From: Prorocentrum cordatum
Taxonomy: Eukaryota
Assembly: GCA_963575745.1 (NCBI GenBank)
Contig: CAUYUJ010000248.1
Span: 558,001 to 622,000 of the forward strand
Length of the DNA stretch: 64,000 nucleotides
Reading direction: 5' to 3'
In this document: positions 1-60,644 of the stretch, piece after piece
Layout of the letters: the number at the start of each line of letters is the position of its first letter
Numbering within the stretch: the first letter of the stretch is position 1
Notes under the pieces: model-generated
Database searches by the model: none
What the model was told of the DNA's origin: nothing
Seen by the model: only the letters and a program-made list of their open reading frames with translations
Position numbers and translations under genes: made by a program

Positions 1-565
1 CGCCTCCTCCTCATCCGCCTCCTCCCCCTCCTCGTCCTCCTTATCCTCCTCCCCAGCCTCCTCCTTCTCCGGCTCCTCCTCCTCCTCCCCTCGCCGGGCG
101 AGGGGCGGCCCCGCGGGCGCCCAGGGCGGCCGGCGCCCGCCCGCCGACGCGCGCTCAGCAAATGCAGCGCCGCGTTGGCGGCTTGCGGCGCTCGCCGCGG
201 CCCTGCGCCTCGCGCCGCGCGGCGCCTCGGCGCCCCGCCGCGGCCGCGTCTGGCGGCCGCGGGCGGCGCGCCGCCGCCCGTCGCCGCGGAGGAGCCGAGG
301 GCTCGTGATCGGGGGCGGCCAGAGGGGGGGGGAGGAGGAGAAGGAGGAGGAGGAGGAGGAGGAGGAGGAGGAGGAGGAGGAGGAGAGGAGGAGGAGGAGG
401 AGGAGGGAGGAGGAGGAGGAGGAGGAGGAATGCTATGGGAATGCGATGTTTCGGGACAAGTGTCCTACCTCAGACCTGGAAGAGAACGAGGGGGGCCCTC
501 GCCCGGGTCTCGCCTCCCGACTCCAGGTAGTGCAGCCACTTGCTGAACGGCACCGAGACCGAGGC

Positions 566-1390
566 TTACTCCTGCTGCACGGCCTTGCCCTCCATGAAGT
601 ACTGAAACTCCTTGCCGAGTCCCCCGTCGACGATCTTCTTTATGGCCTCGTCACGGGCCTTCTCCACCGCCTCCAGCTGGGTCTGGAGGTGCTGGACCGC
701 CACCGTCCTTTTCATCACGAAGTCGAAGAGGTCGCATTTATCCTCGGCAGCCTTGGTGGCGCCCTTCTCATCGCCCTCCGTGTGGTACTTGCTCTCCTTC
801 TTCACCATGTCCTTGTCCTTCTTCTGGTCGCCGTCCTCGAGCTTGGTCTCCAGCTCGCGGCTGTCCTCGTCGGAGCCTTGGCTGCTGCAGGCGGATGCTC
901 GGGGGGCAGCACCTGCACGGCGCCTGCCTCTCTGCCGCCGCTTGGCCTCCTTGCCGTCCTTCGGCAGGGCCTCCACTCCTTCACCCAAGAGCGCGTGCTC
1001 GGCCACGTTCCTGATGGCCCTGGTTTCGCCCGTGATGCGCAGCGACCCCTCGTCGTGCGCCGCGCGGACCTTCGCCGCGAGGACGGGCTTGATCATCCCG
1101 ATCTTGGCCTCCACCTCCTCCATGACCTCCTCCTCGTCGGCCTCCTCCTCCTCCTCCTCCTCCTCCTCCCCCTCCTCCTCCTCCTTCTCCTCCTCCTCCT
1201 CCTCCTCATCCTTCTCCTCCTCCCCCTCCTCTGAGAAGGCTCCAAGGCCTTCTTCTCGTCGGCCTCCTGGGCGGATGCCGCGCGCCCCAGTGCGCCACAG
1301 TGCGCCCCGCCGCGGACGCTGCCACCCGGCGGGAGCCGCCCGCGCGGACTCACCGCGCCGAGCAGCGCCTCCCGCCACCGCATCGGCCAT
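566..1390 (-). CDS. Hypothetical 274-aa protein of the SL-headed element (poly-Glu tract, charged coiled-coil-like C-terminus)
   Basis: ATG ~43 nt after the SL relic. Intronless, with GC3-rich non-repetitive codons (MADAVAGG...KIVDGGLGKEFQYFMEGKAVQQE*). No domain recognised. Confidence 0.5.
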   Translation of the reverse strand: MADAVAGGAARRGESARAAPAGWQRPRRGALWRTGARGIRPGGRREEGLGAFSEEGEEEKDEEEEEEEKEEEEGEEEEEEEEEADEEEVMEEVEAKIGMIKPVLAAKVRAAHDEGSLRITGETRAIRNVAEHALLGEGVEALPKDGKEAKRRQRGRRRAGAAPRASACSSQGSDEDSRELETKLEDGDQKKDKDMVKKESKYHTEGDEKGATKAAEDKCDLFDFVMKRTVAVQHLQTQLEAVEKARDEAIKKIVDGGLGKEFQYFMEGKAVQQE

Positions 1391-1432
1391 GGGAGGAGCG
1401 GTACCGTGGCCAGTGCAACCGGGGGCGGCGGG

Positions 1433-1454
1433 CTCTGAGCCAAATGGCTGCCGA
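1433..1454 (-). other. Degenerate dinoflagellate spliced-leader relic
   Basis: TCGGCAGCCATTTGGCTCAGAG vs DinoSL DCCGTAGCCATTTTGGCTCAAG. Confidence 0.7.
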
Positions 1455-1952
1455 GGGAGGAGGAGGAGGAGGAGGAGGAGGAGGAGGAGGAGGAGGAGGC
1501 GGAGGAGGCAGAAGAGGAGGAGGAGGAGGGAGGGGGGAGCAGGAGGAGGAGGAGGAGGAGGAGGAGGAGGAGGAGGAGGAGGAGGAGGAGGAGGAGGAGA
1601 GGAGGAGGAGGAGGAGGGAGGAAGAGGAGGAGGAGGAGGAAGGGGAGGGGGAGGAGGAGGAGGAGGAGGAGGAGGAGGAGGAGGAGGAGGAGAGGAGGAG
1701 GAGGAGGAGGAGGAGGAGGAGGAGGAGGAGGGAGGAGGAGGAGGGGAGGAGGAGGAGGAGGAGGAGGAGGGAGGAGGGGATAGAGGACGAGGAAGAAGAC
1801 GAGGAAGAGTTTGAGGAGGAGGAGGATGAGGAGGAGGAGGAGGGAGGAGGGAGGGGGGAGGAGGAGGGGGAGGAGGAGGAGGAGGAGGAGGAGGAGGAGG
1901 AGGAGGAGGAGGGAGGGGGGAGGAGGAGGGCTCCTCCTCTTCCTCCTCCTCC
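1455..1952. repeat. (GGA)n microsatellite switching to (CTC)n at 1930/1931
   Basis: Direct reading. It separates the two head-to-head SL elements. Confidence 0.95.
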
Positions 1953-1974
1953 TCCGTAGCCATTTTGGCTCAAG
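1953..1974 (+). other. Perfect 22-nt dinoflagellate spliced leader (DinoSL) at the LINE 5' end
   Basis: TCCGTAGCCATTTTGGCTCAAG, 22/22 match to DCCGTAGCCATTTTGGCTCAAG. It is not followed by a GT donor, so it is not an SL RNA gene. Confidence 0.97.
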
Positions 1975-2135
1975 ATGCCTGGTTCCCTTGGGGCCAAAAC
2001 AGATACCGCTAGTCCGCGGCTTGACCTCGAAGTTCTTCGCCTTTACTGCAGGGGTTGGGCACCTGCACCAGTCTCATCCTTTCTCACGGAGGTCCCTCTT
2101 TCGAGGGGTTCATTCGCCTCCACTCACGGTCATTC

Positions 2136-3377
2136 ATGGCCCAAGATGGCTGGCACAGCAGTGGTGGGAAGGCTCGTCAGCAGTACCACGACCCGTGCCC
2201 GCACTGCAAGTACCGCTGGAACTTCAAGAACAACCACTGGTGCTACCAGTGCGCGGGGGCCCTGGTGTCGCAGCCAGACGGTTCGAAGCGGCCGCTTGGG
2301 CAGTGGGCTTTTGGGCCGCCGCAGTTCTCGAACTCGCCGTTCCACGTTCAGCCTGCTGGGTCTCCCTTCGCCGACCCGACGCCGTCGCAGGCGGCAGCGG
2401 CAGCCGCCACGGGCTCAGGCAAAGGTCGTGGCAAGAAAGGCGCTCCGCCGCCATCGCGGGGGAAGGCCAAGGCGAAAGCCGCCGCCTCCGCGGGCCATGT
2501 CGACAGGCGTCCGTGGGTATACCACCAGGGCTGGTACCCGTACGGCGGCGCATCAGCTCCACTCGAGTCAGCCGATCCGATGGCGGCCCTGCGGGCCAAG
2601 CTGGGCGACGACGGCACCGAGGCGCTGGCAGCAGTGGAGGCCCTCCTCGCCAAGAAGGAAGCCCCGCCTCCTGCTGCACCGCGGCAGCCGCTCCTTGAGG
2701 AGGACGTCTCAACCAAGGGGGTGGCGTACCGTCGTGCAAAGTCCTGGCTCGAGCGTCGCTCTCTCAAGGTCTTGGAGGGTGAGGCCTGGCTGCAGGAGGC
2801 GCGTGATGCTGAAGACCTTGCGGTCGCGGCTGCTGTCGAGGCCAAGCGCTCGTGGGAGGAGGCCTGTGCGAAGCAGCTCCCGCAGCCAGTGGCGGCGCCA
2901 CCCGCTGCTGCAGGGGCATCGTCGCTCAACCTGTCCACGCTCCTGGGCGAGGACAGCGAGGTCGAGGGGCTCACCATCGTCGACGGCCCAATTTTCAGCA
3001 CGGAAGGCCTCGACCTCGACCTTGCGGACCTTCGCGAGTGGGATCGAGTTAAGAACAACCTTGCGGCTGGCATCAAGGCAGAGATCTCCAAGGCGCTCGG
3101 CTCTTCAGCAGAGCAGCTCGCTGCTCTTCGAGCGGAGGCCAAGCAGGTGTCCTTGCGGATGCAAGCGAAGCGCAGGCGCGGTGATAGCGCAGGTGATGGC
3201 GCTGGCGCTAGTGCTGCTGCTCAGCCTGGTGGGTCAGCTGCCTCTGGCTCTGTGGGCGACGGCGGCGGCGCTTCCTCAACCGGCGCAGCTGATGGGCCTG
3301 ATGAAGTTCGAGCTGCCGCCAGGCGCACCGCCAAGGAGTCCTTTGACACTACCCGAGCAGCGCAGCAGGGACTTTAG
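2136..3377 (+). CDS. LINE ORF1 protein (RanBP2-like C4 zinc finger, Ala-rich/coiled-coil)
   Basis: MAQDGW...DPCPHCKYRWNFKNNHWCYQC (CxxC...N...CxxC). Intact ORF ending TAG at 3377. Confidence 0.75.
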   Translation: MAQDGWHSSGGKARQQYHDPCPHCKYRWNFKNNHWCYQCAGALVSQPDGSKRPLGQWAFGPPQFSNSPFHVQPAGSPFADPTPSQAAAAAATGSGKGRGKKGAPPPSRGKAKAKAAASAGHVDRRPWVYHQGWYPYGGASAPLESADPMAALRAKLGDDGTEALAAVEALLAKKEAPPPAAPRQPLLEEDVSTKGVAYRRAKSWLERRSLKVLEGEAWLQEARDAEDLAVAAAVEAKRSWEEACAKQLPQPVAAPPAAAGASSLNLSTLLGEDSEVEGLTIVDGPIFSTEGLDLDLADLREWDRVKNNLAAGIKAEISKALGSSAEQLAALRAEAKQVSLRMQAKRRRGDSAGDGAGASAAAQPGGSAASGSVGDGGGASSTGAADGPDEVRAAARRTAKESFDTTRAAQQGL

Positions 3378-3379
3378 CA

Positions 3380-6300
3380 AGTCTACTGATCCTGGCTTGC
3401 CGTCGACCTTTTACGGCGACATCTTCATGAGTGCTGCGGAGGAGCTCGTCTTCGATCCGCAGTTGTACCTAGCCAATCTCTACAAGGTCACGTTGAACGA
3501 GGGCTGCCCTACGACTCAGTATGGTGACATTTTCCGCACTGAGGCGGAGGAGGTTCACTTTCTCCCCGACTTTCAGCCCTTGTCGGGCATTCTTCAGCTT
3601 AAAGATCAGGATCCCCAACGCCGAGCTGCGATTCACCATCGTGAGGTACTTGAGCGGAGTCTCCGCTCTTTCGCTGCCAGATGGATCCCTGACGTTAACT
3701 CAGCGAACGAGGCTTCTGACGAGGACCACTGGGAAGGGCATTGCATTCCCTTCATCTCGACGTGGTTGTCTCATCCGTTGCGAAGTCCGCTTATTCCAGA
3801 AGCAGCCGCTGCAGCAGGTCATGGGAATCCTGCCATTGCAGCTCTTGATATGGCCAGGCGTATCTGTGAGCGCGCTTGGCGCGCTCGGCGCAGCCAGCGT
3901 GCTCGCGATTTGCAGATGCTGCGGAACTTGGAGTCCGAAGATCACGAGTTGTGGCAGGAGGAGCTGCAGCGACAAGCGATGGCGCTCATGGAAGCTCTGG
4001 AGACCCTCGACACCCGGGCGCCGCAGCGGCGCGTGCAGGGCGGCTTCCAGGTGGCATTCCCCTTTTGCGGGCGTCCCCACCTTGCAGCGCCGCCCGACCA
4101 GGGCAGTCAGGTTGCTTGCGCCCCTGCCCTCGGTCGGACGACTGGCTGCGCGAGCTCTTCGGCAAGTTCGTGGCCTGCTTCGCCCTTGGGCGAGGGGCGC
4201 AGGGATTCAGCCCCTGGTCGTCACAGGCCCCCGCCCACAAGTACTACGGCTACTGGCAGTTTGGCTTCAGTTTCCGCGCCTCTTTCGGGTTCGGCCAGTT
4301 TTGCGAAGATTGCCACCTGTGCTTCGGGCACCGCGAGTGGGTCTCAGGAGGCGTCAACAGGATGCCCTTCCAGCACGGGGTGCATTTCCACGGGTGCTTC
4401 GATGGCTCCGCCCTCGACTCAGATGACTTCGGCGCCAGAGGCGGTGGGTCTTGCGTCGGGCTGGGACGACGCAAATCACGACCCCTTCGATGACCTGGAT
4501 CACATGTTGGACGCGGAAGCGGCTGAGTCCATTCACGCCGTGCCCACAGGTACTGAGGGAGCCGAGGAGCCACAACCTGCTGGCCCCCAGGTCCCTGGCC
4601 GCCCTGCTGACCCCCTTCCGCCCGTCGGCTTCAGAAGGAGGATGGGGGGCGTCTCAGGAGCGTGGCCGAAGCTGCCGAGGACTCTAAGTTATTGGAGGAT
4701 GCGGCCCCAGTCCCACAGCTCTCTGTGCTGCAGAAGCTTTCGGGTCGACCTGATCTGGTTGCTCCTCTCGCTGCAGATGCTGGTTCATTTTCTTTTTTGC
4801 ATGGGAATATTACAGGATGGGGTCCACAAGCTCGCAAGCTTCTTAACGCCACCTCGTTTGCCATGGTGTGCTTTGTGGAGATGCACGTGTTACAGTCCAG
4901 GTTTGCTGATGGCGTCGACCAGACCTTTGATGCTGACGAGTGGAACACGGCTTACACGGGCAGCAAGGCTACGGGCAAAGGAGGCTCTTCTGGCGGCGAG
5001 CTTATTGCTATCCGCAAGCACCTGGCCCCCACCAGCTTTCAAAGTATTCGCCAGGCTGCAGTCAGGCTTGGCAAGTCGGATCCATTCCGGGGGCTTGCAC
5101 CCGTGATCCTGCATCTCAGCAGCGGCAATGTGGTTATCGTGGCCATCTATCTCTGACCTGGACTTTCGACATCAGGCCACAACCAGTCTATGTTGATCCG
5201 CTTGGGTGCTTTTCTGTCGGCGTTAGCCGACCCCGGGATTGTTGTTGGCGACTGTAATCTGGGACCTGATGCATTTCTTCGTTCAGGATGGCCCTCGGAG
5301 TTGAAGAGCGAGATTTTGTATCCAGACGTGAAGGTCACCTGCGACAAGGCGGCTCAAGGTGCATTGAGCGATTATGGCTTGGTCAAGCAAGGCACTACAT
5401 ATCGCTTTCGTATGCGAGGTTTTGCGTCAGTTCCTCGGAAGACGCACATCGCCTTGCAGGTTGACAGCATTGGGTCGAAGCGGAGGTGGTGGCATCAGCG
5501 CCTCGTCACGGCACCAGCGTTCCCGACAGTCAGCCGCCCCAAAAAGCAAGCTGACCCAAGCAGTAAGGCCTCGAATAAGAAACAGGAAGCGCTTATGCAA
5601 CGTCGAGCGAAGCTTCCAGAATACCCTCAAGCTGAATTTGACCTACTTCACAAAGCGGCCGCGGCTACGGCGGCAGAAGCTGACTCAGTCTCTTTCTATC
5701 TTCCTGAAGAGGTTTGGCCCTCAGGTGCTATTGCGGTGCCACCGCTCGGGGAGATCAGCCGACGCACGCTGAAGCAACATTTCTTTGGGGACATTAATGC
5801 ATCGGGCTCGTCGCAGCTTATCAGCAGGTACAACACCTGGACTACCAAGATGTAGATGGCCTTCAGTGTTCACCATCAGCAGGAGGACTTCGAGCCTCTG
5901 CGTGGTGCAGGTCCCCAGCTCAAGTGGCAGTTGTCGCAGGCTGCTCCAGGCCGTGCTCATCTCTCTGACCCAGTGGGCGAGCAGTGGGGCATTGTGCACA
6001 CGCTGGTATTGGGGACGGTGTCGCTGGCCAAGCATGGGCGTGACCCCAAGCAGCTGTCCGATTGCTTTCAGCAGCTTCAGCGGCATGTTGCTCATTTTCA
6101 ATCATCAGACAGACCGGGGTATTTTGGCACATCTGGTCAGGAGGAGCGTGATCGCTGGCTTTGTTGGTCGGCCACCATACCCTCGGCCAATCATGATGAA
6201 CCTGACGACTGGTCACATTTGACGGAAAGACTTGCTCATCGGGCGCAGGCGCGCTCTCTCGCAAAGGGCAGGCAACAGTTCACCAAATGGGCCCTTGAGC

Positions 6301-9300
6301 AATGGCGTCAACATCCTGGGCGTCTTCATGCTATGTCTCGTGGCCCTCAGCCCGCGGTGCATGAGAGTTATCGCCATGGGCAGGTCATCTCGGAACCTTG
6401 GAGTTCATGGGCGACAAGCGGAAATATTGGCGATCCTTGTGGACTGACGCAGTTGACGACGTTGAGGCCATCACCCATATGCCTCAGCAGTTGCATTATG
6501 AATCTCGGCGAGACCCCTTGCCTCCCTTGGAGTTGGAGTCTTTGGAGCGAGTGGTGGCCAAGCTTCCTGCGAAGGCCTCTGGAGTCGATGCTCTCACTCC
6601 TCGTGATCTTCAAAGGGCCCCCCCCCCAAGGTCGGGTGGAATTCCTGGAGTTGCTTGACCAAGTGGAGCAGGAAGGAGTTTGGCCAGCGCAGTTGCTTAG
6701 CAAAATTTGCGCTCTCCTTCCCAAACCCAAGGGAGGGGAGAAGGTCATTGGGCTCCTGGCTGGGTCTGCGAAGATCTGGAGCCGCCTGCGCTACGGTGCT
6801 ACCTCAGAGTGGACTGAATGTTTGGAGGCGCGCTGGGACACGGCTATTGCAGGCAGCAGCGCCTTACGCGCCGCTCTCCTGAGGGCTCTACTTGACGAGA
6901 CGGCGACGGTGCTGGGCATCACGGTGGCCACATTGCTGCTGGACTTCGAGAAGTTTTACGACTCCCTGTCCTGGGTCCTTTTGGGTTGCGTTGCGCAGCA
7001 AGTGGGGTGCCCGCCCATTGTGGTATGCCTGGAGGTGCAGTTATGTGTTGGTCCCCGCTTTCTTCGTGGCCAGAAGGGAGCGTCCAACGCCATCCTGCCG
7101 ACTCGGTCGCTAGTGGCGGGTTCCCCCCATGGGGTGCGGTCAGCTAAGCTCTTCCTGCACCCGCTGTTGCAGCGTGCTCAGGCCAGAGCCGATTTTACGA
7201 CCTTGTGGACATTCATCGGCGATTCTGTGTTGCGTTCAGAGGGACCTCAGGATAAGGTAAAGACTCGCATGGTTGCGTCTGCTACTGAGTTCAAGCAGGG
7301 TTTGGATACTATGCGGTTGGTGGTCCCCCCTAAGACGATGCTTATCTCGAGTGTGATCAGCTTGGACATAAAGTTGGCCAAGAAGCTTCGTCACAAGTCT
7401 ATTCCAGTGCAGTATTGTTTGGAGGCGGTAGACCTTGGTGTCGACGCCACAGGTGGTGGACGGAGGACGGTTCGCACATCTTCCCAGCGCACTGCTAACG
7501 CGGCTCGCCGTGCTGCTCGTCTGCAGCGTTTTCGGCGTCATGCACGGCTCCGCAAGGTCTCTCAGGGCCTGTGGAAAACTGGGGCTTTGCCGCAGGCAGC
7601 ATATGGACATCAAGTTCATGGCCTTGCACCCTACCAGCTCCTTCGCCTTCGACGTCAGGCGGCTATTGCAGGAGCAGGCCCGTTGAAGGGCAGGTGCTTG
7701 ACCAGTACATTAGCCATACTGTATGGTCAGAAAGATCCCGCCTTGGAGCTGAGGCGCCAGCTTCTGGCTGAGTATCTGACGGTCTGGCGCCTTCACCCTG
7801 AAGTTCATCAGAGAGTTGAAGCATCCTGGCCGACAGTTCTTCGTCGTCTGGAGATTGCGGGGCGGGCAGGGCGATGGCGATTGGTCAAGGGACCAGTGTC
7901 TGCAGTGATTGCCACGTTGCTTGATGCTGGGTGGAAGCCATCCTCAGCTACTTCCTGGTGGCGCCCAGAGCATGGTGGATTTGCTGAATGGCAGATCCCC
8001 ACATCATCTCTGGGCGGGTTTTCTGGCGATATGATGGATGTGGGCGGAGTGCTGGAGGACGTTATGCTTGATTTTCACGCTCAGCTTTGGTCTCGAGCTT
8101 CTGAGCGCGAGGGAGCTGAAGACCTCGCTGGAGGTGCTGATCTCTATTGGGCTCGCCGAGAGTTTGCGAAGTTCTCGCAGAACGGGGACCGCGACCAGGC
8201 TGGCCAGACACTTTGCGTGGCTGCTGGAGCGCAGCGGCCGCGGGTGCGCCAGTTCCCGACGGGCGCGGAGGAGCAGCAGCGGTGCCCCAGGTGTCTGAAG
8301 GCGCCTGAGACTCTGAGGCACCGCATCTGGGAGTGCGAGTGTAATAAGGATCATGAAGATTATTCCTTGTCCGCTCCCCTAGTGTCTCAAACACTCGTTC
8401 ATTGTCATATGAATCCAGCCTTGTGGCTTAGAGGCGTTCCCCCGACCGACCATACTCACCGTGAGTTTGTGGACCCGCCGGAAGCGGAGGGTTTGAAACC
8501 TCTCGGCTCGACGTCCCTGACCGATATGTCGATTCCCTGGTCGTTTTTGGGGGCGGTTCGGGAGGGCGGTTTTCCTCCGACCGTCGGCGCCGCCGTCGTG
8601 GCGCGGCGGTTGTTTCGGTCAGGAGAACCCCAGGGACGTCTGCGTGGGAAGTGGTCGGGGGCGTTTCTGGAATTCTAGTGGGAAGAGCCCAAACGGTCTC
8701 CCGCTCTGAGTTGTTGGCTTTCGCCTTGTGCCTTGAGGGCACCACTGGCCCCGTTCATTATGTCACGGACCACTTTCCCTTGATTACTGGTTGGGGGCGG
8801 GGTCGGGTTGGTGCTGTGGGCGGGAGGAATTGGGACTTGTGGTTCCGAATTAAGACCGCTCTTGCTTCGCGAGGTGAAGGTTTAGTAACCTTGGAGCGAG
8901 TGGCTTCTCACTTGGACACGGAGGCCGAGGGCCTGGCGGCCCACCAGGTTTTCCTCAGGTCTGGAAATCAACTTGCGGACCGCGCGGCTTCAGAGGCCGC
9001 GGAGCGTTCCTGGCACCTTTCGGCCCGCGCGGACCCTCGAACTGATTTCTGGGATGCTCAGACCGCCCTAATTAGAAGGAGAGCGCGGCGCGCCCTGGTC
9101 GACTCGTCCGCGGCCGACCCCAGGAAGGCCCGCCCTGCGGTTGCGCCCTTGGAGAGAGCGAGGCAGGGTTCGAAGTTGGATCGGGCGCTTCGCGTCTCCC
9201 CTCGAGTTTGTGACGTTCGGCAGCGCGTTTCGTTGCAGGAGTTGCGAGGTGCTGTGTGATAAGAATGACCTCTTAGAGGTCTCCAAGGCGCCGTGCATCC

Positions 9301-9761
9301 CTGCTGTGGGGGTGGATTCTTTCCCCTCCGACATTGTCGTGGTGGTCCCTGGCCCCGTCACGTTGTCTGGAGCGGTCTTGCATCCGTCCCATAAGCTTGC
9401 GTTTTGGGATTTGCATAGTCTGTACTTTTGCCAGTGTTGTGGCCGAGCGGCTACTTCGGACGGGCGCCAGTTGATGCTTGACTGTAAAGTGCCCTATCGC
9501 AAGGGCATTGAAAATCTGGCCCGGATTCGTCGTGGTTTGTACCCGAGTTACGCAGGCCCGTCCAAGGCGAGTGTCCTGCTCCGCCACGCTCGGTTTTCTG
9601 CCGTGGCCGATCAGCGAGCTCGAGCGCGAGATCCCATCCCGTCGGAATTGGCTGTGCCTCAGGGCATCGGAGAGGCTTTGACCGTTTCGGTGGACGAGGC
9701 TCCTCTCGTCCCTCTCCCTGTCGACCCTAGCAGCGATTCCGATTATAGGGGGTTGCCTTAG
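3380..9761 (+). pseudogene. LINE ORF2 polyprotein, disrupted: APE endonuclease (~4780-5470), reverse transcriptase (~6560-7450), CCHC finger (~8280-8345), RNase H (~8670-9000), C-terminal Cys/His motifs
   Basis: APE: GNITGW, VCFVEMH, VAIYL, VVGDCN, SDYGLV, KTHIAL. RT: KASGVD, LLPKPKGGEKVIGLL, LLLDFEKFYDSL, LVAGSPHG, FIGD (degenerate YxDD). Finger: CPRC...ETLRHRIWEC. RNase H: QTVSRSELLA, VTDH, NWDLW, SHLD, GNQLADRAA. In-frame stops at 5156 and 5855 plus several frameshifts. Confidence 0.9.
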
Positions 9762-11028
9762 GCACATGCGTTCCTGCTTGCTGCTCTCTCCCTCTCTTGC
9801 CCTGCCCGCCTCTCGTTGCTCGACGTTGCTTGCCAAAACGTTCCAAAACGTTCCTCCTCCTCCTCCTCCTCCTCCTCCTCCTCCTCCTCCTCCTCCTACT
9901 GCCGGAGGTTGATAGGCCTCCCACCCTGACGCGTCGATTCGCGAATCGGCCGCGTTCGGTTCGCGAGAGGGCGTCGCGGGCGTCGGTTTTTCGGGTGCCT
10001 GGGTCCGTCGGTTTCGGTTTTGGGCCGTTGTCATTAACAAGGGTGGTTTACTGAAAGGAGGTTTGTCCACCGCCGAGACAGGGGGCCGCTGTGGAATTGA
10101 CCGCCTCCCACACGATTCGAGACCCCCCAAATGTCGGAGAAGGAATATCGGCATAAGTTCGGACGCGACTCATGGCAGGTCAAATTCTGACTCTGCCCTC
10201 GTCCAAAATCCGGCTTCATCCGGTTTGCTCCCGCTTAGTCCGGCGTAATACCGTTCTATCCCGCTTAATCCCGTTTAATTCGAGGCCCACTCCGGGGCAA
10301 CCGCCCCCCCAATGGGGCTTCATTATTTTTAGTCATTCCGACGAAAAACTCCTGGTAGTTACCTCCTAAAGCAGAAGAGCAAGTTCTCGGAACTCCGCGC
10401 GGGCGTCTTGGATCTGCTCTCGGGGTCCCCTTCCGCGGCGCCGCCCGGCGCGCTCCGCGCGCTGGGGAGGGGGGGGGGTCCGGCACCGATCCAAGATGAT
10501 GGGCTTGTTTTCCACCACCACCAGTAGAAGTTGAAGAGAGGGGGTCCTCCTCCTCCTCCACCACCTCCTCCTCCTCCTCCTCCTTTTCCTCCTCCTCCTC
10601 CTCTTCGTCCTCCTCCTCCTCCTCCTCCTCCTCATCCACATCCACATCCTCTTCCTCCTCCTGCTCCTCCTCCTCCTCCTCTTCGTCGTCCTCCTCCTCT
10701 TCCTCGTCTTCCTCCTTCCCCCATCCAATTTGTGGTGGTACTGGTGGAAGACAGGCCCATCACCAGAGGTCCGCGCGGAGCTCCGGAAGTTTGTGCATAC
10801 GCAGTCAATTATTCATAGTTTCTCCTGGGAGGCCCTCGCCGTCACGGCTGGGTTCGCCTCGGAGTTCTGGTCAGAGCGCGCCTCGGGTCGCAGGACTGCG
10901 CCGCACTGATACCTTGCCATTGCGCTGCGACCTGCAGCCCGCCCTCGCCGATGCATCGGTGGTGCGTTGGCGATGCGGCGTGATCCTCCGACCCCGTCTG
11001 CGCCGCCCCCATGTGGGAGACCTCCAAG

Positions 11029-20318: not shown

Positions 20319-20340
20319 TCCGTAGCCATATCGGCTCGAG
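20319..20340 (+). other. Spliced-leader relic (duplicated at 20501-20521)
   Basis: TCCGTAGCCATATCGGCTCGAG, 19/22 match to DinoSL. Confidence 0.85.
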
Positions 20341-20500: not shown

Positions 20501-20605
20501 CCGTAGCCATATCGGCTCGAGGCAGCGCTCTGGCGCACGTCGGCGTGGCATCCCGCGGCGCGAAGGTCACCGCGGGGGTCGCGGCACCTGGCATGCGGCC
20601 CGCGC

Positions 20606-59745: not shown

Positions 59746-60608
59746 TTGGTCCGTTGGCCATCTGCCTTCCACTCCTCGCGCACCCGCCTCGCGCAGCGGC
59801 TCCTGCGCGACCCGCCCAGCGCAGCCCCCCCTCTGCCACGCCAGGCTGAGCCGACGCCGAGCGCGCCCCGCCGCAGCCGCCGCTGCAGTGCGGCCACTCG
59901 GCCGCGGAAGGACACGCGTGTTCGGCCACTGCGAGCGCTGCCCGCCTGCCACGGGGCCGCGGACGAGCGACGTGCGGCACAGAGGCCGACGCGAGCCTCC
60001 GCGCGCCGCGCGGCGCTCCTCCAGGGCCACCGGCCGCCCTTGCGGGGGCACGTGCGGCCAGAGCACGCACCAGCCGCCGCGCCCCCCGGGCACACTGGAG
60101 GTAGCCCCGCGCTCGGTGGGCCCTGGAAACGACAGGGCCGTCTTTTATACCGGTTCCGGTTCCGTCGCCGTCTTTTTTTTATTTTTTCCGTTTCTGGTTC
60201 CGGCTCCAATCGCGGAACCGTTATTTTGCCGTTTCCGGTAACCGTGTTTTTTGTTGTTTATCTTGCTTCCGTTGTCCAGTAACAGTTTCTCGAAAACGGT
60301 GGAACAACGGCCCTGCCGTTTCCGGGGCCCAATAAGGCCCAGGGGGCACTCAACACCGCCCAGGGAATTGGGACCAAGTAAGGTGTGCGGCGTCAGGTGG
60401 ACGGGGTCTTCCAGCATCGCTCGCGCAACATGGCCCCGCAAAGTGAGGCATCACACGATTGCTGGTGGCAGCTCTCATCTGAAACTCGACATCGGAACGG
60501 ATGGAGAGGAACTCGTTCAAATCGTGGGGAGTCGTGCTTGTGTGTACGTGTGTGTGTGTGTGTGTGTGTGCGTGTGTGTGTGTGGGTGTGCGCGTGTGCT
60601 TCGGATTT

Positions 60609-60644
60609 TCCGTCGCCCTTTTGGCTCAAACATTTTGACTTCAG
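60609..60644 (+). other. Tandem spliced-leader relics
   Basis: TCCGTCGCCCTTTTGGCTCAAA (19/22) followed by CATTTTGACTTCAG. Confidence 0.7.

What the first reader, a model, noticed from the sequence alone, without database searches (positions are those of the whole stretch)
331..1454. Second SL...(TCC)n element head-to-head with the LINE: a possible non-autonomous partner
Seen on the minus strand: (CCT)n, degenerate SL, a 274-codon intronless ORF with no RT, then a tandem 11-mer ending in TTCC and a (TCC)n tail. The LINE ends the same way (AAAACGTTCC twice, then TCC repeats) although the sequences differ. Inference: a short element or captured mRNA mobilised in trans by the same machinery, with the duplicated ...TTCC unit as a 3' recognition or slippage signature.
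Basis: partly seen in the sequence, partly recalled or inferred. Interest (0 to 1): 0.75.

Follow-up and report, generated by a model that had tools for sequence, protein, structure and literature searches.

The report
Host-gene retrocopy inside a TCC microsatellite
A copy of an ordinary dinoflagellate gene, made from a spliced messenger RNA, sits inside a TCC repeat beside a jumping gene that is framed by the same repeat, which hints at the machinery that makes the many such gene copies in these algae.

Summary
On the minus strand lie a 474-bp (CCT)n array, a decayed dinoflagellate spliced leader (SL), a 274-codon frame, an 11-mer duplicated in tandem and a (TCC)33 array. The neighbouring LINE starts with an exact SL and ends in AAAACGTTCC twice, then (TCC)15.

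The short unit is not a dedicated non-autonomous element. It is a processed retrocopy of a host mRNA from a large dinoflagellate protein family (best matches Prorocentrum cordatum). It is colinear with the family mRNA and has no intron. Its first third is frame-scrambled, and only a 185-codon frame survives. It shares no 3' UTR sequence with the LINE.

A link to LINE machinery is supported but not proven. A metagenome search for (TCC)3 joined to the SL found 13 distinct loci. Four are APE-type LINEs or their relatives. Three are short units built (TCC)n–SL–body–A6-7–(TCC)n.

My reading is that both units were inserted into TCC arrays by target-primed reverse transcription, at different times. 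The duplicated terminal unit occurs only at these two 3' ends in the window and in none of three environmental retrocopies, so its meaning stays open. The papers I read call the enzyme behind dinoflagellate retrogenes unknown. Genome-wide counts could not be run.

The parts
331..429 (-). (TCC)33 array directly 3' of the retrocopy: tail and/or remaining part of the target microsatellite
   Evidence: TRF period 3, 33 copies, 93% matches; same polarity as the unit's sense strand
427..448 (-). tandem 11-mer CATCGCATTCC/CATAGCATTCC, its last TCC in phase with the array
   Evidence: TRF period 11, 2.0 copies; one of only 2 of 34 arrays with such a terminal duplication
430..565 (-). 3' UTR of the retrocopy (136 nt), with no A-run at its end
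   Evidence: read; no similarity to the LINE 3' UTR
566..1123 (-). surviving open frame, 185 codons plus stop (P0002), the conserved core and C-terminal part of the host family
   Evidence: 100% match to a protein the window itself encodes; 87% identity to P. cordatum paralogue P0003; tblastn; alignment
1124..1390 (-). decayed 5' third of the coding region: the family N-terminus is spread over three frames, with a (GAG)n expansion (1108-1231) and a 10-bp tandem duplication (1282-1306)
   Evidence: three-frame translation; tblastn second HSP in another frame; TRF
1391..1432 (-). 5' UTR between the SL relic and the ATG (42 nt)
   Evidence: read
1433..1453 (-). relic of the dinoflagellate spliced leader, 4 edits from the consensus
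   Evidence: mean 0.07 such hits per shuffled window
1456..1929 (-). (CCT)n array 5' of the SL relic, in the unit's sense polarity: the presumed target microsatellite
   Evidence: TRF 158.7 copies, 86% matches
1931..1953 (+). short (TCC)n-type run CTCCTCCTCTTCCTCCTCCTCCT directly 5' of the LINE's SL, in phase with the SL's first TCC
   Evidence: 96% pure
1953..1974 (+). complete 22-nt DinoSL at the 5' end of the LINE
   Evidence: exact 21-nt match at 1954-1974, preceded by T
1975..9851 (+). LINE body: zinc-finger first ORF, APE-like region, weak RT, C-terminal regions. Most parts lie in one frame, with 2 in-frame stops and 4 frame switches.
   Evidence: RVT_1 at 14.6 bits, below the cutoff; APE region aligns to the Pfam-confirmed APE regions of L026 and L020
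9833..9854 (+). tandem 10-mer (AAAACGTTCC twice) at the LINE 3' end; the two AACGTT palindromes can pair as a 6-bp hairpin
   Evidence: TRF 2.2 copies, 100% matches; fold
9852..9897 (+). perfect (TCC)15 array 3' of the LINE
   Evidence: TRF 100% matches; purity 1.0

Best explanation
The minus-strand unit 331-1455 is a processed retrocopy of a host messenger RNA.

Shown:
- A mature, SL-capped mRNA of a dinoflagellate-specific gene family was copied into DNA. What remains is the SL relic, 5' UTR, intronless coding region and 3' UTR.
- The copy lies inside a (TCC)n microsatellite, in the polarity where TCC is on its sense strand.
- It is old. The SL, the tail and the 5' third of the coding region have decayed, and only a 185-codon frame survives.

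Inferred:
- The copying was done in trans by an APE-type LINE of the kind that lies next to it, through target-primed reverse transcription. The endonuclease nicks the GGA strand of a TCC/GGA array, the freed 3' end primes cDNA synthesis on the RNA, and the 5' end is joined back into the array. The first bases of the SL (UCC) match the repeat and could help that join.
- The neighbouring LINE is a later, separate insertion into the same repeat cluster, in the orientation that fits the local TCC polarity.
- The 10-11-nt tandem duplication at both 3' ends may be a trace of re-initiation or slippage of the reverse transcriptase at the first few bases. This step is the least secure.
For: Retrocopy:
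- The SL relic lies 42 nt upstream of the ATG.
- The DNA is colinear with family proteins from N-terminus to C-terminus, with no intron.
- The called product P0002 is a contiguous translation.
- In P. cordatum 83.7% of genes have introns and the mean is 11.7 exons per gene (PMC10666404, Table 2, passage seen).
- It is a host family, not a transposon protein: 305 representatives at E <= 0.001, no Pfam family, no likeness to the LINE's first ORF.

TCC framing in the window:
- Both SL-capped units have TCC arrays on both sides in their own sense polarity.

Recurrence elsewhere:
- The pattern (TCC)3+SL found 14 metagenome contigs, which are 13 distinct loci, with 57-72% G+C.
- L020 and L026 carry Exo_endo_phos above the Pfam cutoff. 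These were 2 hits among 20 ORFs from 10 of the loci.
- L014 and L018 are related to L026. Together with L026 they share a 5' UTR motif with the window LINE.
- The window LINE's APE region aligns to those of L026 (E 6e-8) and L020 (E 1e-7).
- Of 7 non-LINE contigs with at least 600 nt after the SL, 3 (L019, L021, L023) end in A6-7 followed at once by a TCC-type array.
- These are the only 3 A-runs of 6 or more found downstream of the SL in all 14 contigs.
- The L021 ORF has its best relative in P. cordatum (43% identity, E 9e-38).

Unbiased sample of exact SLs:
- In contigs of prokaryote MAGs that carry an exact DinoSL (presumably misbinned dinoflagellate DNA), 2 of 12 sites not classed as SL RNA genes are directly preceded by a microsatellite under a strict test, against a background of 0.43% (p = 0.0012). 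By eye it is 4 of 12: (GT)n, (TCA)n, (GA)n, (GACA)n.
- One site is a bare SL with a 19-bp target-site duplication.

Terminal duplication:
- Found at 2 of 2 SL-capped units in the window, against a 3.2% background.
Against: - TCC/GGA arrays are very common here: 27 array starts were tested in 64 kb. Lying beside one is not rare.
- The window retrocopy has no A-run at its 3' end, unlike the three environmental ones.
- No target-site duplication can be told apart from the repeat. No empty site, parent gene or second genomic copy could be examined, because no genome is held.
- The metagenome search selected for TCC+SL, so it shows recurrence but not frequency.
- In the unbiased samples, 0 of 151 exact SL sites had TCC upstream, and the TCC+SL pattern found nothing in genome contigs.
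- No LINE contig reaches its 3' end, so the (TCC)n end of this LINE family rests on the single copy in the window.
- The terminal duplication is absent from 3 of 3 environmental retrocopies. It is not enriched over all arrays: 2 of 34 against 3.2%, p = 0.29.
- The LINE copy itself is defective: 2 in-frame stops and 4 frame switches.
- Its RT match to Pfam is below the cutoff.
Confidence: 0.6

Rival explanations
1. This is an ordinary, old single-exon gene. It may be an ancient retrogene that was later copied as DNA, and it lies among abundant TCC microsatellites by chance. On this view the LINE next door and the similar ends are coincidence.
For: TCC/GGA arrays are frequent in the window. A paralogue with 87% identity exists elsewhere in the genome, which could be a DNA duplicate. 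The unit has no poly(A) remnant. 16.3% of P. cordatum genes have no intron (PMC10666404, Table 2).
Against: Arrays lie at both ends of both SL-capped units, all four in sense polarity. The SL relic abuts the array within a few bases. The same architecture recurs in three environmental retrocopies whose 3' arrays were not selected for. The terminal duplications occur only at these two arrays.
Confidence: 0.2
2. It is a retrocopy of a host mRNA, but not made by this kind of LINE. Either cDNA from another reverse transcriptase (for example an LTR element, as the 2018 review favours) or any cDNA was captured at breaks in fragile TCC/GGA tracts without a LINE endonuclease.
For: Song et al. 2018 (PMC6050394, passage seen) argue for Ty1/copia. 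Polypurine/polypyrimidine repeats are break-prone (my own knowledge, not tested here). The oligo(A) of the environmental copies has no complementarity to a GGA primer.
Against: APE-type LINEs carry the same (TCC)n-SL junction, and the window LINE has TCC on both sides. The sense polarity matches in every case seen. A bare SL with a 19-bp target-site duplication points to staggered nicking.
Confidence: 0.12
3. It is a dedicated non-autonomous partner of the LINE (SINE-like, or an ORF1-only element), recognised through a shared 3' end.
For: Both units start with an SL and end in a duplicated ...TTCC unit plus (TCC)n.
Against: There is no shared 3' UTR sequence. The ORF is a member of a host family, not LINE-derived. 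Its 5' coding region is decayed. There are no further copies in the window, and only one close paralogue appeared in the protein search.
Confidence: 0.03

Closest known systems
Dinoflagellate retrogenes marked by relic spliced leaders (Slamovits & Keeling 2008, known to me only through citations; Song et al. 2017, PMC5585692, passages read)
   Same: An SL relic in the DNA upstream of an intronless copy of a host gene, within a family with dispersed paralogues.
   Different: Here both insertion borders are visible: TCC arrays on both sides and a LINE-like 3' end. The passages I read in these papers do not describe borders or tails. They state that the enzyme is unknown.
Microsatellite-specific non-LTR retrotransposons with APE endonuclease (Tx1 and R1 clades; Kojima & Fujiwara 2004 as cited in PMC4640811, passages read)
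   Same: A LINE framed by one kind of microsatellite. It has an APE-type endonuclease, and its tail matches the target repeat.
   Different: The clade of this LINE was not determined. Specificity rests on one copy in the window plus relatives that were found by a TCC-selecting search. The 5' SL cap and the co-insertion of host mRNAs are not part of those descriptions.
L1-mediated processed pseudogenes of mammals (relaxed 3' recognition; PMC3747384, passages read)
   Same: Host mRNAs copied in trans by LINE machinery; the environmental copies keep a short A-run.
   Different: The landing site is a TCC array rather than a TTTT/AA site. The window copy lacks any A-run.
UnaL2/UnaSINE pair of the eel, with a 3' terminal repeat and template slippage (PMC1636434, passages read)
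   Same: A short tandem repeat at the very 3' end of the LINE, and a possible slippage trace on a second template.
   Different: There is no shared stem-loop or 3' conserved region between the two units here. The repeated units differ in sequence.

Membership tests
DinoSL-relic retrogene / processed retrocopy | Spliced-leader relic encoded in DNA upstream of the coding region | tested here: met
   21-mer at 1453..1433, 4 edits from DinoSL, 42 nt before the ATG; mean 0.07 such hits per shuffled window
DinoSL-relic retrogene / processed retrocopy | Colinear with the mature mRNA, no introns | tested here: met
   Family proteins align from N-terminus to C-terminus on contiguous DNA; the called product P0002 is a contiguous translation
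DinoSL-relic retrogene / processed retrocopy | Intron-containing parent gene elsewhere | not testable with these tools
   No genome is held; the paralogues are known only as proteins
DinoSL-relic retrogene / processed retrocopy | Poly(A) remnant at the 3' end | tested here: not met
   The 3' UTR runs straight into the 11-mer duplication and (TCC)n; three environmental retrocopies do have A6-7
DinoSL-relic retrogene / processed retrocopy | Target-site duplication | tested here: inconclusive
   Both flanks are TCC repeats, so a duplication cannot be told from the array
SINE-like non-autonomous partner of a stringent LINE | 3' end sequence or structure shared with the LINE | tested here: not met
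   Best local alignment of the two 3' UTRs scores 17, against a shuffle mean of 16.8 and maximum of 30
SINE-like non-autonomous partner of a stringent LINE | Many dispersed copies with the same ends | tested here: inconclusive
   No second copy in the window; one 87% paralogue in the protein search; genome not available; sequencing-run search gave only repeat-word matches
Microsatellite-specific APE-type LINE (applies to the neighbouring LINE) | APE endonuclease and reverse transcriptase | tested here: inconclusive
   Pfam finds no APE in the window copy, and RVT_1 scores only 14-14.6 bits against a cutoff of 29.6. The region 4611-5855 aligns to the Pfam-confirmed APE regions of L026 and L020 (E 6e-8 and 1e-7).
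Microsatellite-specific APE-type LINE (applies to the neighbouring LINE) | Independent copies all inserted in the same microsatellite | tested here: inconclusive
   The window copy plus 4 LINE loci (L014, L018, L020, L026) sit behind TCC arrays, but those four were found by a search that required TCC+SL
Microsatellite-specific APE-type LINE (applies to the neighbouring LINE) | Repeat at the 3' end equals the target repeat | tested here: met
   (TCC)-type run of 23 nt 5' of the SL and a perfect (TCC)15 at the 3' end

The most novel reading that the evidence does not exclude
SL-capped APE-type LINEs that land in microsatellites could be the long-sought engine of dinoflagellate retrogene formation. 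In Prorocentrum-like genomes the repeat is (TCC)n; in others it may be a different repeat. On this reading the LINEs copy themselves and, in trans, polyadenylated host mRNAs into these repeats, so that microsatellite arrays act as nurseries for new genes. The first bases of the spliced leader (UCC) and the repeat at the 3' end would give the RNA a match to the target at both ends. The 10-11-nt terminal duplication would be the footprint of reverse-transcriptase re-initiation.
Probability: 0.35. Interest if true: 0.8.

Novelty: new variant of a known kind. Interest (0 to 1): 0.6.

Why it matters
About a fifth of dinoflagellate genes are reported to be retrogenes. The papers I read say that the reverse transcriptase and the mechanism behind them are unknown, or they favour LTR elements:
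- PMC5585692 and PMC6050394.
- PMC12014239: 'retroviruses cannot be ruled out'.

This locus, together with the environmental loci found from it, shows both borders of such copies. They lie in one kind of microsatellite, in one polarity, and APE-type LINEs carry the same junction. That turns the open question into a simple genome-wide count, followed by an endonuclease or retrotransposition assay.

My searches found no paper describing microsatellite-framed SL retrocopies or SL-capped LINEs with TCC ends. The supplements of the P. cordatum genome paper were not opened and could hold repeat annotation that bears on this.

Tried and rejected
- Whole genome: none is held. Copy number, parent gene, empty sites and other LINE copies could not be examined.
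- Public sequencing runs: 24 runs shared only 5-8% of the sampled words. Laying four of them (X1, X24, X22, X2) gave nothing on the unique parts. Two contigs of X2 matched at under 90% identity over 75 and 37 nt. No P. cordatum run was served.
- LINE 3' pattern CCAAAACGTTCCTCCTCC: 11 hits in genome contigs and 1 in viral contigs, all in prokaryote or viral contigs. About 17 hits are expected by chance from collection size (my estimate), so these were taken as chance matches.
- TCC+SL pattern in genome contigs: 0 hits.
- Earlier notes of this scan: nothing by place, by words or by sequence for this locus.
- The LINE's C-terminal ORF: only one relative of similar length.
- PDB sequence search: nothing for the RT region, and only weak low-complexity hits for P0001.
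- ESM Atlas: no usable hit for family member P0004.
- Test of whether the L021 ORF belongs to the same family as P0001: hhalign probability 0.4%, rejected.
- Other LINE relatives in the window by tblastn: none.
- Search for target-site duplications around other SL sites: only L035 gave one.
- The idea that the terminal duplication marks TCC-array 3' ends in general: rejected (2 of 34 arrays).

Full report
**What is there**

The window is dinoflagellate DNA with 61% G+C. All named protein relatives of the ORF are from Prorocentrum cordatum.

Read on the minus strand, the finding consists of these parts:
- a 474-bp (CCT)n array at 1929..1456;
- a 21-nt relic of the dinoflagellate spliced leader (SL) at 1453..1433;
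- a 42-nt 5' UTR;
- a 274-codon frame, 1390..566;
- a 136-nt 3' UTR;
- the tandem 11-mer CATCGCATTCC/CATAGCATTCC;
- a (TCC)33 array at 429..331.

The SL relic is 4 edits from the consensus. The window has 5 sites that good, while 30 Markov shuffles gave a mean of 0.07.

The LINE on the plus strand begins with the complete, exact SL at 1953-1974. That SL follows a 23-nt TCC-type run. The LINE ends in AAAACGTTCC twice, then a perfect (TCC)15 at 9833-9897.

**What the short unit is**

Its ORF has no Pfam family, no likeness to the LINE's first ORF and no solved relative. It does belong to a host protein family:
- six close members were aligned;
- a profile of them finds 305 cluster representatives at E <= 0.001 and 111 at E <= 1e-10.

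The family has a conserved N-terminus (consensus MADAxASALLxxVVRAGGSRQVVAATAVALWRAARA) and a core motif (consensus RNVAEHALFGEGAEALPKDGKEAKRRQR).

The window DNA is colinear with this protein from first to last residue, without an intron. The N-terminal 40 residues, however, are spread over three frames: MADAVA, then EALLGAV, then VRAGGSRRVAAS after a stop, then ALWR, then RAASAQEADEKKALE. At least five frame switches are needed to read them. This stretch also holds a 10-bp tandem duplication and an expanded (GAG)n run. Only the 185-codon frame from 1123 survives, and that frame is the product on record for this place (P0002).

The combination of SL relic, full-length colinear copy, no intron and a decayed 5' end identifies a processed retrocopy. 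For comparison, 83.7% of P. cordatum genes have introns (PMC10666404, Table 2, passage seen). A paralogue with 87% identity (P0003) exists elsewhere in the genome. Its DNA could not be fetched.

**Relation to the LINE**

The 3' UTRs of the two units share nothing beyond chance. The unit is therefore not a SINE-like partner that borrows the LINE's tail.

The two insertions differ in age. The LINE's SL, 10-mer repeat and TCC array are all perfect. The short unit's SL has 4 edits, its tail is 93% pure, and its 5' coding region is broken.

What the two units share is their framing. Each has TCC-type repeats directly 5' of the SL and directly 3' of its end, always with TCC on its own sense strand. 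Each also has a 10-11-nt tandem duplication whose last TCC is in phase with the array. Such a duplication is found at only 2 of 34 TCC arrays tested, namely these two, against 3.2% of random positions.

**Evidence from elsewhere**

No genome is held for the window, and public runs gave nothing usable. I therefore searched the metagenome contigs for (TCC)3 joined to the SL. The search found 14 contigs, which are 13 distinct loci because L017 and L022 are the same. Their G+C is 57-72%.

- LINEs. L020 and L026 encode an Exo_endo_phos endonuclease above the Pfam cutoff. L014 and L018 are related to L026, and together with L026 they share a 5' UTR motif with the window LINE. The window LINE's region 4611-5855 aligns to the APE regions of L026 and L020.
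- Short retrocopies. Of the 7 non-LINE contigs with at least 600 nt after the SL, three (L019, L021, L023; units of about 0.65, 1.34 and 0.64 kb) end in A7, A7 and A6, followed at once by a TCC-type array. No other A-run of 6 or more occurs downstream of the SL in any of the 14 contigs.
- L021 in detail. It has an intact 359-codon ORF whose best relative is a P. cordatum protein (43% identity). Its 5' UTR holds an older SL relic that is again preceded by TCCTCCTCC.

The architecture (TCC)n–SL–mRNA–oligo(A)–(TCC)n thus recurs. The 3' arrays were not selected for by the search.

**Unbiased samples**

Searching for the exact SL alone gave 20 stretches in prokaryote MAG contigs and 119 in viral contigs. 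None of the 151 sites with enough upstream sequence has TCC before it.

I judged which MAG-contig sites were SL RNA genes by the GT that follows the SL. Among the 12 sites not so classed, a strict test finds 2 directly preceded by a microsatellite, against a 0.43% background (p = 0.0012). By eye it is 4: (GT)n, (TCA)n, (GA)n and (GACA)n.

The unit behind the (GA)n array starts with a RanBP2-type zinc-finger ORF. The first ORFs of the LINEs here carry a similar cysteine motif by eye, though Pfam did not call it in them. One MAG-contig site is a bare SL flanked by a 19-bp direct repeat.

That these MAG contigs are dinoflagellate DNA is inferred only from the SL.

**Mechanism**

The simplest account is target-primed reverse transcription by APE-type LINEs that nick TCC/GGA arrays. 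The LINE RNA and, in trans, host mRNAs are copied from a primer in the GGA strand. The sequence after the copy's 3' end is then target DNA, which explains A6-7 followed by TCC.

The SL starts with UCC, and in every junction that UCC stands in phase with the repeat. For the metagenome loci this holds by design of the search; for the window LINE it was observed. It would allow microhomology joining at the 5' end.

The window retrocopy has no A-run. It may have been primed internally at ...CAUUCC, or on a non-adenylated RNA.

The terminal duplications resemble the template slippage described for UnaL2 (PMC1636434, passages). Their absence from the three environmental copies keeps this reading weak. 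In the LINE, the duplicated AACGTT palindromes can also form a small hairpin.

These steps are inferred. None was tested biochemically.

**What speaks against it**

- TCC arrays are abundant in this window, so adjacency is not rare.
- There is no recognisable target-site duplication, no empty site and no parent gene.
- The frequency of TCC-framed SL sites in any genome is unknown, because my search selected for them.
- Only one LINE 3' end was seen.
- The LINE copy is itself broken: two in-frame stops and four frame switches.

**Comparison and novelty**

Three things are already known:
- SL-relic retrogenes (PMC5585692 and PMC6050394, passages read);
- microsatellite-specific APE LINEs (PMC4640811, passages read);
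- LINE-made processed pseudogenes (PMC3747384, passages read).

What I did not find in print is their combination in dinoflagellates. The passages I read say that the enzyme behind retroposition is unknown, or they favour LTR elements.

I rate the finding a new variant of a known kind, of moderate to good interest, because it makes an open question countable.

Noticed in passing
L047-L165 (viral-contig loci): The exact 21-nt DinoSL occurs in 119 stretches of AT-rich giant-virus MAG contigs, often many times per contig. Each occurrence comes right after a conserved AT-rich motif such as TTGATAAATCAATTTTTTATTTTTTATTTTTAAATATAAATTTTA. This looks like a viral promoter followed by a genome-encoded spliced leader at gene starts. 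One literature search found no description of it.
   Followed up: partly
L035:3001-3021 and flanks: A bare 21-nt SL with nothing behind it, flanked by a perfect 19-bp direct repeat (TTTTGCTTGCAGGCGTGAG). It looks like a retroposed leader alone with a target-site duplication.
   Followed up: no
L027, L030, L040, L042 (5' ends): Exact SLs directly preceded by other microsatellites: (GT)n-like, (TCA)n, (GA)n and (GACA)n. L040's first ORF has a RanBP2-type zinc finger. Different lineages may use different repeats as landing sites.
   Followed up: partly
window 60520-60630: An SL-like 21-mer with 3 mismatches at 60610-60630 lies about 20 nt downstream of a long (GT)n array.
   Followed up: no
window 20320-20340 and 20501-20521: Two identical SL-like 21-mers (CCGTAGCCATATCGGCTCGAG, 3 mismatches) lie 181 bp apart. 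Both are followed by GCAGC, and an AT-richer stretch lies between them.
   Followed up: no
window 2025-9761: Most coding parts of the LINE (first ORF, APE, RT, C-terminal ORF) lie in one frame. That frame is broken by two in-frame stops (TGA at 5154, TAG at 5853) and four frame switches.
   Followed up: partly
window 1975-2030; L014, L018, L026: A conserved 5' UTR motif (GGATACCGCTAGNCCGCGG-like) lies about 35-50 nt after the SL in the window LINE and in three environmental relatives.
   Followed up: no
L021 (minus strand of the locus), first 75 nt: Behind the full SL lies a second, older SL relic (CATTTTGGCTCA), again preceded by TCCTCCTCC. This indicates two rounds of retroposition, both next to TCC.
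   Followed up: no
L023 (as oriented) 1-400: Upstream of the (TCC)8-SL junction lies a (GGA)n array, the same inverted GGA/TCC arrangement as at window 1456-1953. Further upstream are two ~140-bp repeats with inverted ends ATCGCCTGCC...GGCAGGCGAT.
   Followed up: no
window 1108-1231: A (GAG)n run of about 124 nt encodes a poly-Glu stretch inside the retrocopy. Family member P0004 has only a short acidic stretch at that place, so the run is an expansion within the copy.
   Followed up: no
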